22,373 nucleotides of DNA from Candidatus Omnitrophota bacterium (lineage in GTDB: Bacteria; Omnitrophota; Omnitrophia; Omnitrophales; Aquincolibacteriaceae): positions 1 to 22,373 of the forward strand of contig JAZDJU010000016.1 in the NCBI GenBank assembly GCA_043803685.1, written 5' to 3'. The position numbers and the translations under genes are program-made. The notes beneath the pieces are model-generated. The model was not told the DNA's origin. It worked only from the letters and a program-made list of their open reading frames with translations, and did not search any database. This document shows, piece by piece, positions 7,129 through 9,343 of the stretch (within the stretch, counting starts at the first letter, position 1; the number at the start of each line of letters is the position of its first letter).

Positions 7129-7377
7129 TTAATTCCTCTCTTTCCGCAATAAACGGAGAGCGAGTTGCATCGCAGCTTCTTCGATGATCTCTCGGGTGAG
7201 GTAAGTTCCTTTTTTGATCTCGTCTTTGATCTCGCGGACGCGCCCCAGATTGGGCTCCGCTTCGGAGGGGATAAGGCGTAAATACTTTTGAACGTCCGCG
7301 CGATGCCTTGGGGCATTTGATTTCTCGCTCGGAGTCTGGATCCTGAATCTATATTTTTTTTCTGCCACGCTATGCAT
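7129..7377 (-). CDS. FlgM-like anti-sigma-28 factor (82 aa)
   Basis: C-terminal RVREIKDEIKKGTYL..E..EEAA resembles the FlgM sigma-binding signature (KVxxIKxxIxxGxY). Directly downstream of the sigma-28 gene. ATG 7377 with AGGAAG upstream. Confidence 0.65.
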   Translation of the reverse strand: MHSVAEKKYRFRIQTPSEKSNAPRHRADVQKYLRLIPSEAEPNLGRVREIKDEIKKGTYLTREIIEEAAMQLALRLLRKERN

Positions 7378-7453
7378 GCTTCCTGCCTTTAAGCCACTTG
7401 CGGCCGCCTTGGGAAAAAACAATTACACGGCTTCTTTCGCTGTGACTTTTCTT

Positions 7454-7480
7454 GTATCGACGCAGCGTGACAAAACTTAA
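7454..7480 (-). promoter_or_regulatory. Sigma-28 promoter upstream of the flgM-like gene
   Basis: TTAAGTTT-N11-GTCGATAC versus consensus TAAAGTTT-N11-GCCGATAA. Confidence 0.7.
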
Positions 7481-7541
7481 TGTTTTTGTGAAAAATCCTG
7501 AGTTTTACCCTGTGACCCCCTCGCTTTTATCAGAACGGGGA

Positions 7542-8321
7542 CTATGCCTCTAAAGACAAATGCCCCGCGCGACGCATCAAGTGCCCCCTCAGTCGGACCA
7601 CAACCTTAGTGTGGATCTGGCAAACTCGGGATTCGGAAACGTCCAGGATCTCGCCGATCTCGCGAAGCGTAAGGTTCTCATAGTAATACAGCACAATCAC
7701 GAGCTTCTCTTTTTCCGGAAGCTGATCGATCGCATCCGCCAGAAGCTCTTTGACCTCGCTCTGATGGACATAGTTGAACTGGTCTGTGATCAGGGAGTCT
7801 TCGATGGTTTGAAGCCTCGAGATCGGCTTATTCCCGTCATCGTTCTGCCAGACCTCATCGAGCGAAAGAAAGGTCGTGGAGTTGAGATCGCTATAGATCG
7901 AGTTCAAGTCATCGGTTGAGATCTTCAAGGCCTTGGCAACTTCATCGTCCGTGGCCAAACGCCCGTTCTTCTCTTCGAGCTCTTTGCACTTACGATCGAT
8001 CTCTCGAGCGCGTTTGCGCAAAAGGCGCGGTGCCCAATCGAGCTTGCGAAGTTCATCCATGATGGATCCGCGGATACGGGAAACGGCATAGGTCTCGAAC
8101 TTATTCCCTTGGGAAACATCGTATTTATTGATGGCATCGAAAAGACCGAGGATGCCATAGCTAACGAGATCATTGAACTCGACGTTCGGAGGCAATCCGA
8201 TCGCCACGCGCCCCGCCACGTATTTCACCAGATACAAATATTTTTTGACGATCTCTTCACGCAAAGGAAGGCTTTTGGTCCTCTTGAACTTCTTCCACAT
8301 CTTGATCTCATCTTCGTGCAT
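7542..8321 (-). CDS. fliA: RNA polymerase sigma-28 factor, FliA/WhiG family
   Basis: LVKYVAGRV..GLPPNVE, KFETYA..RIRGSIMDELRKLDW, LTLREIGEILDVSESRVCQIH. Confidence 0.95.
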   Translation of the reverse strand: MHEDEIKMWKKFKRTKSLPLREEIVKKYLYLVKYVAGRVAIGLPPNVEFNDLVSYGILGLFDAINKYDVSQGNKFETYAVSRIRGSIMDELRKLDWAPRLLRKRAREIDRKCKELEEKNGRLATDDEVAKALKISTDDLNSIYSDLNSTTFLSLDEVWQNDDGNKPISRLQTIEDSLITDQFNYVHQSEVKELLADAIDQLPEKEKLVIVLYYYENLTLREIGEILDVSESRVCQIHTKVVVRLRGHLMRRAGHLSLEA

Positions 8322-8360
8322 GGGGGGTCTCCTTTTCGCCTCGTTCCGCCAAAGCGCCGC

Positions 8361-8603
8361 TCACTTCGGGCTCTCCTGCTGTTCAAGGATCTTTTTGATT
8401 TGACTCAATGTATAATTCTTTGCCTGCAGGATCTTGATCTGCTCCAAACGATCGAACACTAACTCATCATAAAGCCGGTGCCCCGAAATGGTTCGCCGGG
8501 CTTCGTGAATAAGCCCCGCGACCGTATAGTTATGAAGCGTCTGTCTGGAAAGACTCGTGTATTGCATTACTTCGCCGATCTTGTAGAGCTTTTCGCGTTT
8601 CAT
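8361..8603 (-). CDS. Small MerR-family HTH regulator (80 aa, no effector domain)
   Basis: YKIGEV...SRQTLHNY...GLI...RT.SGHRLY...L..I..LQ...YTL.QIK. ATGA overlap with the upstream gene. Confidence 0.9.
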   Translation of the reverse strand: MKREKLYKIGEVMQYTSLSRQTLHNYTVAGLIHEARRTISGHRLYDELVFDRLEQIKILQAKNYTLSQIKKILEQQESPK

Positions 8604-9280
8604 TGCATTTCACTCCTTGCCCTGTCCTTGCGTGAAAGGATCTTTTGGAGGAGAGATAAGGCCTTGGGGTCTTCGGGTTCCAGCATAAGGATTTTCTCGA
8701 TCGTGAATTGGGCCTGTCCTAGCTGCCCTTCGGCTGCGAGCTTCTCCGCCTGAACACGGTACTGTTCCAGGCGATCCGCGATCTCATTTTTATACATTTT
8801 ATGGATAAAGAGCGTGTCCGCCTTGCCCTCCTTAAGCGCTTTCTCCCGGATCTGGTCGATCAGCTCAGAAGCGGCGCTATTCTCGCCGTCATAAAGAAAA
8901 ACCTTTTCAGCAGCAAAAAGAGCCAGGTCGTATTGATTGGCATTGAAAAGAGTCCGGCTTCGTTCGAGCCACGTCTTGACTTGATCTCTCTTATCATCTG
9001 CGTTCATTTCTTCAACCGCCTGAGGCAGCAGATGATCTTTCTGGCGTTCGATCTCTTTGCCGAGAATCTCCCCCATAAGTTTGATGGCGCGCGGGTTTTG
9101 AGGGTCTGAGGCGAGAACCTGTTGAACGGCGGTACGTGCATTGTAATATTCGTGGCTGTCGTAAAATTTTTCTGCCTGACCAAGCACGGTTTCGTGATCC
9201 CCCGCGATGACGGACGCATGCGGCCCAGTCGCGCAACCGGCCAAGAGCAATGCTGAGAAAACCATTCGTGTTAGTCTCAT
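8600..9280 (-). CDS. TPR-repeat lipoprotein
   Basis: Lipobox LLAGC and three TPR-like helical pairs (VLASDPQNPRA, VFLYDGENSAA, ILMLEPEDPKA). Confidence 0.8.
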   Translation of the reverse strand: MRLTRMVFSALLLAGCATGPHASVIAGDHETVLGQAEKFYDSHEYYNARTAVQQVLASDPQNPRAIKLMGEILGKEIERQKDHLLPQAVEEMNADDKRDQVKTWLERSRTLFNANQYDLALFAAEKVFLYDGENSAASELIDQIREKALKEGKADTLFIHKMYKNEIADRLEQYRVQAEKLAAEGQLGQAQFTIEKILMLEPEDPKALSLLQKILSRKDRARSEMQ

Positions 9281-9284
9281 AGTT

Positions 9285-9343
9285 TATAAAATGTAAATTA
9301 CACTTTATAGTTTACAATCTATAACTTTTTACGCCCAGGTCAA
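9285..9343 (-). promoter_or_regulatory. Sigma-70-like promoter plus downstream palindromic operator for the TPR-MerR-fliA operon
   Basis: TTGACC (9343-9338), 16 bp, TAGATT (9321-9316). Dyad TATAAAATGTAA-A-TTACACTTTATA (9285-9309, 11/12 match) lies between the -10 and the ATG. Confidence 0.55.

What the first reader, a model, noticed from the sequence alone, without database searches (positions are those of the whole stretch)
7129..9343. Stand-alone sigma-28 circuit with no flagellar context: TPR lipoprotein > mini-MerR > FliA/WhiG-like sigma > FlgM-like anti-sigma
Seen in sequence: four co-oriented genes, with TPR and MerR coupled by an ATGA overlap. The 82-aa last ORF carries an FlgM-like C-terminal motif and has its own TTAAGTTT-N11-GTCGATAC promoter. 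No flagellar or chemotaxis gene lies in the window. Established: FlgM is normally removed by flagellar export, Chlamydia (PVC) uses sigma-28 for development without flagella, and Streptomyces development uses WhiG plus the small MerR-like BldC. Inference: this is a self-limiting sigma-28/anti-sigma loop repurposed for a lifestyle or developmental switch, possibly with envelope input via the TPR lipoprotein. It is the best candidate here for an undescribed system.
Basis: partly seen in the sequence, partly recalled or inferred. Interest (0 to 1): 0.8.

Follow-up and report, generated by a model that had tools for sequence, protein, structure and literature searches.

The report
Leftover flagellar regulators without a flagellum
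This uncultured Omnitrophota bacterium has lost its flagellum but keeps, under strong selection, four genes from the old flagellar gene cluster, including the flagellar sigma factor and its inhibitor, a situation already known from one Legionella species.

Summary
Four co-oriented minus-strand genes are present: a TPR lipoprotein, an 80-aa MerR-type protein (ATGA overlap), a FliA/WhiG sigma-28, and an 82-aa FlgM relative with its own sigma-28-type promoter.

No flagellar export gate (FlhA) was found in this genome or in 40 relatives of its order. The four-gene order was the same in all 30 loci examined, and all four genes are under purifying selection.

The cluster is not a new kind of circuit. 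In a flagellated sister family, orthologues of all four genes lie in one ~42 kb flagellar supercluster: TPR and mini-MerR at its head, then fliA and flgM near its end. The window therefore holds the collapsed remains of that supercluster.

By motif search the conserved sigma-28 regulon is tiny. It comprises flgM itself (negative feedback) and an orphan 63-aa zinc-ribbon gene, which is also sigma-28-driven in the flagellated relatives.

FlgM cannot be exported here, so its release must work another way, probably by turnover, as reported for non-flagellated Legionella oakridgensis. This scan had already noted an orphaned sigma-28/FlgM pair in another Omnitrophota genome.

Verdict: real, a new variant of a known kind, of moderate interest.

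The parts
9316..9343 (-). Sigma-70-type promoter of the operon: TTGACC (9343-9338), 16 bases, TAGATT (9321-9316)
   Evidence: Read. TTGAC and the TATAGA/TAGATT box are kept in the 12 aligned upstream regions. Its function is inferred.
9292..9316 (-). Transcribed leader with the palindrome TGTAATTTACA (9302-9292) and an upstream half-copy TTGTAAAC (9316-9309). Candidate operator, possibly for the mini-MerR.
   Evidence: Conserved or duplicated in relatives, for example two tandem GATTGTAATTTACA copies in L027. TGTAANTTACA occurs once in the 2.89 Mb genome, here. Binding by MerR is inferred, not tested.
8600..9280 (-). TPR lipoprotein, 226 aa (lipobox LAGC)
   Evidence: TPR_19 and TPR_14 are above their cut-offs. 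It shares 30-80% identity across the order and 25% (E 1.8e-13) with part of a 959-aa TPR protein next to the mini-MerR in the flagellated genome G171.
8361..8603 (-). Mini-MerR: an 80-aa HTH protein with no effector domain, ATGA-coupled to the TPR gene
   Evidence: PF13411 MerR_1, 49.7 bits against a cut-off of 21.6. It shares 76-98% identity across the order and 77% with the gene at the head of the flagellar supercluster in G171 and G161. It shares 54-68% with G076 and Planctomycetota copies.
7542..8321 (-). Sigma-28 (FliA/WhiG family), 259 aa
   Evidence: TIGR02479, 275.7 bits against a cut-off of 189.6, with regions 2, 3 and 4 present. It is the only copy above the cut-off in the genome. 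It shares 72.6% identity with the FliA that follows flhA-flhF-flhG in flagellated G171 and G161.
7454..7480 (-). Sigma-28-type promoter TTAAGTTT-N11-GTCGATAC of the flgM-like gene
   Evidence: A loose form of the motif was found in 26 of the 29 loci that have sequence downstream of the sigma gene, with both boxes kept and the spacer diverged. flgM of flagellated G171 carries TAAAGTTT-N11-GTCGATAA; in G161 the -35 box is kept but the -10 box is degenerate (GTCGTTAT).
7129..7377 (-). FlgM-family anti-sigma-28 candidate, 82 aa
   Evidence: PF04316 E 0.056 for the window protein. 15 of 17 orthologues match PF04316 at E<=1, best 3.7e-6. hhalign of the family profile against G171 FlgM gives probability 98.8%, E 8.9e-17, over 60 columns. 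That G171 FlgM scores 32.6 bits on PF04316, above the cut-off of 25.

Best explanation
The four genes are what remains of a PVC-type flagellar supercluster after the structural genes were deleted. The TPR protein and the mini-MerR come from its head, fliA from its tail, and flgM from just beyond.

Proposed working: a sigma-70-type promoter drives TPR-MerR-fliA. Its leader carries a palindrome found nowhere else in the genome, which is a likely operator, possibly for the mini-MerR (inferred). FliA directs RNA polymerase to TTAAGTTT-N11-GTCGATAC and transcribes flgM. FlgM then binds FliA, giving a self-limiting loop (inferred from family membership; binding not tested).

The one other order-wide target found is an orphan 63-aa zinc-ribbon gene (G000:C36:830-1018) behind TAAAGTTT-N11-GCCGATGA. 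It was already a sigma-28 target in flagellated relatives. Some lineages add other targets: FliW-CsrA, a lipoyl-domain protein, and TIGR04073-type small secreted proteins.

No type III export gate exists, so FlgM cannot be removed by secretion. Its release most likely depends on turnover or an unknown partner, as reported for L. oakridgensis. What the circuit responds to is unknown.
For: Identity: sigma; FlgM family; MerR HTH.

No flagellum:
- FlhA, Flagellin_N, FliP, FliG_C and rod families are all absent from the genome, which is 91% complete.
- FlhA was found in 0 of 41 genomes of the order sample, of which 21 are at least 90% complete with at most 5% contamination.
- In the phylum sample FlhA occurs in 7 of 251 genomes, against FliA above cut-off in 90 of 251.
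- By my sum over families f1-f10, FliA at E<=1e-40 occurs in 84 of 95 genomes and FlhA in 1 of 95.

Relic origin:
- G171 contig C3 carries, co-directionally, TPR-TPR-miniMerR-TPR-FlgN-kinase-sigma54 regulator-FlgB-FlgC-FliE...FliG-FliH-FliI...FlgE-MotA-MotB...FliP-FliQ-FliR-FlhB-FlhA-FlhF-FlhG-orf-FliA-3 genes-FlgM.
- In Planctomycetota records the mini-MerR likewise precedes kinase/sigma54 regulator/FlgB-FlgC-FliE.
- FliW-CsrA survive between accA and the TPR gene in 3 of 41 relatives.

Function retained: within the genus the sigma is 96-97% identical in protein but only 57-60% identical at third codon positions. MerR, FlgM and TPR show the same pattern.

Regulon:
- flgM promoter conserved.
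- Zn-ribbon gene present in 34 of 41 genomes.
- The motif lies about 45 bases upstream of it, with at most 3 of 16 mismatches, in 19 of 30 loci. It was also read directly in G000 and in flagellated G161 and G171.
- The pattern WAAGTTT-N11-12-GYCGAT gives 89 hits against 27 for the reversed control in 41 genomes, by my tally.

Precedent: PMC5655016, passages read.
Against: - The window protein itself is below the Pfam FlgM cut-off (14.1 against 25 bits). A profile search of solved structures found no FlgM.
- No transcript data exist, so promoter use, operon structure and feedback are all inferred.
- 3 of 29 loci lack the loose promoter motif (L027, L028, L034).
- With the strict motif the genome holds only 2 sites, which is chance level. 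The regulon may therefore be larger with divergent promoters, or partly lie in the missing 9% of the genome.
- One genome of the same family (G192) has an FlhA hit. I attribute it to its 7% contamination but did not test this.
- The role of MerR and its link to the palindrome have no direct support.
Confidence: 0.75

Rival explanations
1. One reading: a sigma-28/anti-sigma loop rebuilt into a developmental or lifestyle switch. The TPR lipoprotein senses the envelope and the mini-MerR acts like BldC beside WhiG.
For: Strong selection and order-wide retention show that the module does something important without flagella. The TPR protein is a lipoprotein, co-transcribed and translationally coupled with MerR. 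In some species sigma-28-type boxes precede small secreted TIGR04073-type proteins.
Against: TPR and MerR were already neighbours at the head of the flagellar cluster in flagellated relatives, so their presence needs no new function. The BldC family model fails (12.4 against 77 bits). The conserved regulon found is two small genes. Nothing ties the TPR protein to FlgM or FliA.
Confidence: 0.15
2. The flagellar genes exist but were not binned or assembled, so this is an ordinary flagellar sigma/anti-sigma pair seen in an incomplete genome.
For: The genome is 91% complete and in 133 contigs. It has eight CheW-domain hits in three clusters.
Against: Five flagellar families are absent from the genome. 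FlhA was found in 0 of 41 genomes of the order, including 21 of high quality. Where flagella exist in the phylum, fliA lies 3-5 kb from flhA on the same contig. Here fliA is flanked by MerR and flgM inside a 22 kb contig with no flagellar genes.
Confidence: 0.03
3. A decaying relic: the genes are on their way to loss and do nothing.
For: FliW-CsrA have been lost from most lineages. The FlgM N-terminal half is poorly conserved.
Against: All four frames are intact in all loci examined. Protein identity far exceeds third-position identity. The promoter boxes are conserved while the spacers drift.
Confidence: 0.02
4. The small ORF descends from FlgM but no longer inhibits FliA. It could, for example, be a co-factor or act on another partner, so there would be no feedback loop.
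For: It is shorter than the flagellated relatives' FlgM (82 against 104 aa) and below the Pfam cut-off. Binding was not tested.
Against: The C-terminal 45 residues are the conserved part (P42, R46, E49 and I54 are invariant). From established knowledge of the Aquifex sigma-28/FlgM structure (recalled, not checked here), this is the sigma-binding part in known FlgM. It aligns with bona fide FlgM at 98.8% probability.
Confidence: 0.05

Closest known systems
FliA-FlgM of non-flagellated Legionella oakridgensis (review PMC5655016, passages read; primary paper Tlapak et al. 2017 seen only as a citation there)
   Same: [quoted passage not shown] FlgM must be removed without a basal body.
   Different: Here the state is fixed across a whole order of a PVC-group phylum (84 of 95 sampled genomes). 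The pair sits with two further relics (TPR, mini-MerR) in a fixed four-gene order. The conserved target is an orphan Zn-ribbon protein. None of it has been tested experimentally.
PVC/spirochaete-type flagellar supercluster tail flhF-flhG-flgV-sigma28-FapA-YjfB-TM+HTH (PMC11607428, passages read)
   Same: In the flagellated Omnitrophota orthologue locus, fliA follows flhA-flhF-flhG and a small ORF.
   Different: In the window all these neighbours are gone. I did not test whether the small ORFs around fliA in G171 are FlgV or FapA.
WhiG-RsiG (and BldC) of Streptomyces, and the WhiG1/WhiG2 split in Actinomycetota (PMC12871210, abstract read)
   Same: A sigma-28-family factor kept and re-used in non-flagellated lineages.
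   Different: The anti-sigma here is of the FlgM family, not RsiG. The MerR-type protein fails the BldC model. No c-di-GMP link was examined.
Chlamydial sigma-28 (recalled, no call)
   Same: A PVC-group organism without flagella that keeps sigma-28.
   Different: Chlamydiae have a type III export gate. This genome has no FHIPEP protein. The comparison was not tested here.

Membership tests
FliA/WhiG sigma-28 (TIGR02479) | Score above the curated family cut-off, with regions 2, 3 and 4 | tested here: met
   275.7 bits against a cut-off of 189.6. PF04542, PF04539 and PF04545 are all above their cut-offs.
FliA/WhiG sigma-28 (TIGR02479) | Cognate promoter of the TAAAGTTT-N11-GCCGATAA type upstream of dependent genes | tested here: met
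   Conserved boxes lie upstream of flgM and of the Zn-ribbon gene. Use by this sigma is inferred; the consensus itself is recalled.
FliA/WhiG sigma-28 (TIGR02479) | Linked to flagellar genes | tested here: not met
   No flagellar family was found in the window or the genome. The 72.6%-identical orthologue in G171 and G161 is linked to flagellar genes.
FlgM anti-sigma-28 (PF04316 / TIGR03824) | Match to the family model above its cut-off | tested here: inconclusive
   The window protein scores 14.1 bits (cut-off 25) and 13.1 bits (cut-off 40.75). 15 of 17 orthologues match at E<=1, best 3.7e-6. The profile aligns with a FlgM that passes the cut-off at 98.8% probability, E 8.9e-17.
FlgM anti-sigma-28 (PF04316 / TIGR03824) | Transcribed from a sigma-28 promoter | tested here: met
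   Motif at 7480-7454, conserved. This is sequence evidence only.
FlgM anti-sigma-28 (PF04316 / TIGR03824) | Binds sigma-28 | not testable with these tools
   Complex prediction was queue-full and then unavailable. No job was run.
FlgM anti-sigma-28 (PF04316 / TIGR03824) | Removed by export through the flagellar type III apparatus | tested here: not met
   No FHIPEP or FliP in the genome, and none in 41 genomes of the order.
MerR family regulators | N-terminal MerR HTH | tested here: met
   PF13411, 49.7 bits against a cut-off of 21.6.
MerR family regulators | C-terminal effector-binding domain | tested here: not met
   The protein ends at residue 80. All NCBIfam equivalog models match only residues 1-80 and stay far below their cut-offs.
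BldC family (NF033787) | Match above the family cut-off | tested here: not met
   12.4 bits against a cut-off of 77.
Orphaned FliA-FlgM pair (L. oakridgensis type) | Flagellar structural and export genes absent while fliA and flgM are intact | tested here: met
Orphaned FliA-FlgM pair (L. oakridgensis type) | FlgM removed by degradation | not testable with these tools
   This needs protein stability assays.

The most novel reading that the evidence does not exclude
The 80-aa MerR-type protein is an unrecognised early regulator of PVC-type flagellar superclusters, sitting at their head in Planctomycetota and in flagellated Omnitrophota. In the non-flagellated order, MerR, sigma-28, FlgM and the 63-aa zinc-ribbon protein survive together as a self-contained circuit that now times a non-motility programme. 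That programme could be envelope or attachment functions of these small, possibly host-dependent cells. The zinc-ribbon protein would be the effector, or the factor that frees sigma-28 from FlgM.
Probability: 0.25. Interest if true: 0.7.

Novelty: new variant of a known kind. Interest (0 to 1): 0.5.

Why it matters
The locus shows how a flagellar regulon dies. The machine goes, while its regulators and one small target are kept for a very long time and are among the most conserved genes of the locus. This gives a clean natural system for asking what sigma-28 and FlgM do apart from flagella, and how FlgM is controlled without export. It also points to two uncharacterised players that flagellated Planctomycetota or Omnitrophota share: a mini-MerR at the head of the flagellar cluster and a sigma-28-dependent zinc-ribbon protein. 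It is not a new principle, because Legionella oakridgensis and Streptomyces WhiG are precedents.

Tried and rejected
- Complex prediction of sigma (A2) with the FlgM family (A1). Nothing was folded.
- Expression data: no RNA holder was listed for window 7000-9400, and all DNA holders had small shares. No reads were laid.
- A profile search of solved structures with the FlgM-like family found no FlgM chain (best E 0.87, unrelated).
- Strict genome-wide motif AAGTT-N12-14-GYCGATA. G000 has 2 sites against 2-3 in simulated sequence. The 41 genomes have 145 sites against 99 for the control, by my tally. The second G000 site (C37:47078) lies on the start of an opposite-strand gene with no gene downstream, so I treated it as chance or inherited coding sequence.
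- Relaxed-scan candidates. C100:18071, in front of a methyltransferase/hydrolase fusion, did not recur among the pattern hits in other genomes. C98:63791, in front of a prepilin cluster, has two -35 mismatches and its conservation was not tested. Both are left as unproven.
- The TIGR04073-type 109-aa gene has the motif in G003, G004, G005, G007 and, for a relative, G032. Neither G000 paralogue has it.
- The Zn-ribbon protein matches no Pfam or NCBIfam family. Its model has pLDDT 85.9, but no PDB match reached E<=0.001. The Atlas look-up gave only generic small-protein clusters. All 74 sequence relatives are at least 67% identical, and those with names are Omnitrophota hypotheticals.
- Literature. 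Searches (Omnitrophota with flagellar/sigma factor/FliA/type IV pili) found no paper on this module. One search for MerR in flagellar clusters returned false hits; the one hit I opened (PMC3930126) matched only the author name Merrell. So 'not in print' rests on these four searches only.
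Full report
**What is there.** On the minus strand of the window lie four co-oriented ORFs:
- 9280..8600, 226 aa, starting MRLTRMVFSALLLAGC (signal peptide plus lipobox);
- 8603..8361, 80 aa, sharing ATGA with the stop of the first ORF;
- 8321..7542, 259 aa, with AAGGAG 8 bases before the ATG;
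- 7377..7129, 82 aa.

Pfam and NCBIfam give the following. The first ORF matches TPR repeats. The second matches the MerR HTH (PF13411, 49.7 bits against a cut-off of 21.6) and has no room for an effector domain. The third matches FliA/WhiG (TIGR02479, 275.7 against 189.6 bits) with regions 2, 3 and 4. The last gives only a weak FlgM match (PF04316, E 0.056, 14.1 bits against 25).

TTAAGTTT-N11-GTCGATAC sits at 7480-7454. The rest of the window encodes GlmS, a glucoamylase-like protein, AccA, a YkuD transpeptidase, a ComM-like ATPase, an IS200-type transposase, GDSL lipases and a PilJ-type histidine kinase. No flagellar or chemotaxis family was found.

**Is the small ORF FlgM?** I collected its orthologues from 27 loci and aligned 17 of them (A1). 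The N-terminal half drifts. The C-terminal part reads EVRKY.RLIP.EPEPN.GRV.EIKEEI.KGTYLT.E.IEETA.RLA.RFL and is conserved.
- 15 of the 17 match PF04316 at E<=1, best 3.7e-6.
- In the flagellated genome G171, a 104-aa gene near fliA scores 32.6 bits on PF04316, above the cut-off.
- The A1 profile aligns to that gene with 98.8% probability, E 8.9e-17, over 60 columns.
- A profile search of solved structures found no FlgM.

I take family membership as shown. Binding to the sigma is not shown, because the complex predictor was unavailable.

**No flagellum.** The genome has 2.89 Mb in 133 contigs, with 91% completeness and 6.6% contamination.
- It gave no match to FHIPEP/FlhA, Flagellin_N, FliP, FliG_C or the rod family, while the control genomes rang.
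- It has one FliA/WhiG above cut-off. Its only FlgM-like hit is the window's.
- FlhA was found in 0 of 41 genomes of the order sample, which spans 10 families and includes 21 high-quality genomes.
- In a phylum sample of 251 genomes, FlhA occurs in 7 (families f12 2/2, f26 3/3, f27 1/29, f1 1/65). FliA above cut-off occurs in 90.
- By my sum over the window's order (f1-f10), FliA at E<=1e-40 occurs in 84 of 95 genomes and FlhA in 1 of 95. That one is G192, which has 7% contamination; I did not test whether the hit is contamination.

The genome does hold eight CheW-domain hits in three clusters. Chemosensory signalling therefore exists without a flagellum.

**Conservation.**
- 38 of 40 relatives have an orthologue of the sigma at 64-98% identity; one of these is a contig-end fragment.
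- All 30 loci examined carry TPR, MerR and sigma in the same order. 28 also carry the FlgM-like gene; the other two contigs end there.
- In 80 public records found with the MerR profile, 57 show MerR directly followed by the sigma, mostly preceded by accA and TPR. Their titles name Candidatus Omnitrophota.
- Within the genus the sigma is 96-97% identical in protein but 57-60% identical at third codon positions. MerR, FlgM and TPR show the same excess of protein conservation.

The genes are functional, not decaying.

**Where the cluster comes from.** In the flagellated sister family f12 the sigma orthologue (72.6% identity) lies after flhB-flhA-flhF-flhG and a small ORF. FlgM follows three genes later.

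The mini-MerR orthologue (77% identity) lies on the same contig of G171, at the head of the same co-directional cluster of about 42 kb. The order there is TPR959-TPR881-MerR-TPR914-FlgN-PAS kinase-sigma54 regulator-FlgB-FlgC-FliE ... FliG-FliH-FliI-TPR-FliJ ... FliK-FlgD-FlgE ... MotA-MotB ... FliO-FliP-FliQ-FliR-FlhB-FlhA.

The window's TPR protein is 25% identical (E 1.8e-13) to part of the first of these TPR proteins.

In flagellated G076, of another class, MerR (67-68% identity) and a 1045-aa TPR protein sit beside flgK, a flagellin-type gene, fliW and csrA. In Planctomycetota records the MerR relative (54-65% identity) precedes the kinase, the sigma54 regulator and FlgB-FlgC-FliE. Loci L230, L231, L236 and L238 show this, and L241 has FlhA.

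Three relatives of the window's order (G028, G031, G037) still keep FliW and CsrA between accA and the TPR gene. In G031 a sigma-28-type box lies in front of fliW.

The simplest reading is that the four genes are the ends and regulators of the ancestral supercluster, joined by deletion of the structural genes.

**Promoters and regulon.** A loose sigma-28 motif lies between the sigma and flgM in 26 of the 29 loci that have that sequence. Both boxes are kept and the spacer differs in distant families. flgM in G171 has TAAAGTTT-N11-GTCGATAA; the G161 site keeps the -35 box but has a degenerate -10 box (GTCGTTAT).

Genome-wide, the strict motif is at chance level (2 sites in G000; 145 against 99 control sites in 41 genomes, my tally).

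I then inspected 60 sites in distant genomes. One downstream gene recurred: a 63-aa CxxC...CPxC protein.
- In G000 it lies at C36:830-1018, behind TAAAGTTT-N11-GCCGATGA.
- It is present in 34 of 41 genomes at 71-100% identity.
- 19 of 30 loci have the motif with at most 3 of 16 mismatches, mostly about 45 bases upstream (11-66 across loci). In 5 loci my start call was wrong, and in 4 my search pattern missed the gene.
- Flagellated G161 and G171 have the gene with TAAAGTTA-N11-GTCGATA.

With the -10 box relaxed to GYCGAT, 41 genomes give 89 hits against 27 control hits (my tally). Most of the excess comes from these two genes.

Lineage-limited targets are a lipoyl-domain protein in family f4 and TIGR04073-type small secreted proteins in some species, though not in G000.

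The zinc-ribbon protein matches no family and no convincing fold.

**Operon control.** Upstream of the TPR gene, TTGACC-N16-TAGATT is followed by a leader with TGTAATTTACA and a half-copy. This element is conserved or duplicated in relatives and occurs only once in the genome. I propose it as an operator, possibly for the mini-MerR. This is inference only.

**Mechanism, with status.**
- Shown by sequence: gene identities, absence of the export gate, conserved promoter boxes, selection, and the relic origin.
- Inferred: FliA transcribes flgM and the zinc-ribbon gene; FlgM binds FliA, giving negative feedback; FlgM is relieved by turnover, not export.
- Unknown: the signal, the role of TPR and MerR, and the function of the zinc-ribbon protein.

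**Comparison.** The closest known case is Legionella oakridgensis. There only FliA and FlgM remain, flgM is sigma-28-dependent, and FlgM appears to be degraded (PMC5655016, passages). Re-use of sigma-28 in non-flagellated Actinomycetota is also in print (PMC12871210, abstract).

This scan had already reported an orphaned sigma-28/FlgM pair in another Omnitrophota genome (e1-5046490). My results agree and add three things: the relic origin of TPR and MerR, the order-wide extent, and the zinc-ribbon target.

Four searches found no paper on this module in Omnitrophota or on a MerR-type gene in PVC flagellar clusters.

**Not done.** No complex prediction (tool unavailable), no RNA evidence, no gene trees, and no test of G192.

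Noticed in passing
G032:C24:49359-50000 and G113:C1:316268-316948 (genome handles, not in the window): Sigma-70-family domains (TIGR02479, 144-146 bits, below the cut-off) lie inside giant open frames of 7637 and 44145 codons.
   Followed up: no
G027:C10, G023:C132, G032:C39, G040:C46, G036:C17: CsrA domains, often in tandem, lie inside open frames of 1057-5958 codons. Stand-alone CsrA occurs only next to FliW.
   Followed up: no
G000 contigs C30, C38, C52: Eight CheW-domain hits in three clusters, including CheA-sized frames of 724 and 903 aa, in a genome without flagellar genes.
   Followed up: no
window 9281-9755: A 475-base gap between accA and the TPR gene with no convincing gene. In G028, G031 and G037, FliW and CsrA sit at this place.
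   Followed up: partly
G000:C36:372-710 (locus L096, minus strand): The zinc-ribbon gene is divergent from a TIGR04073-like small secreted protein (31.8 bits, below the cut-off of 50). In other species, members of that family carry sigma-28-type boxes.
   Followed up: partly
G000:C37:47077-47102: AAAGTTTTTAACTCTCATCGCCGATA overlaps the start of an opposite-strand 547-aa gene and recurs in 9 genus members. It may be inherited coding sequence or an antisense promoter.
   Followed up: partly
window 13869-14381: IS200-type Y1 transposase (PF01797, E 4.4e-10) next to a ComM-like Mg-chelatase ATPase.
   Followed up: no
window 2611-3138 (minus strand): A 175-aa protein with two Zn_ribbon_TFIIB stretches (PF13453, 77.6 bits) next to glmS.
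   Followed up: no
window 20217-21692 (minus strand): A histidine kinase with a PilJ-type N-terminal sensor domain.
   Followed up: no
G000:C98:63791 (locus L129): TTTAGTTT-N12-GCCGATGC lies 127 bases before a run of at least four prepilin-type (N_methyl) genes. This is a weak candidate for sigma-28 control of pili.
   Followed up: partly
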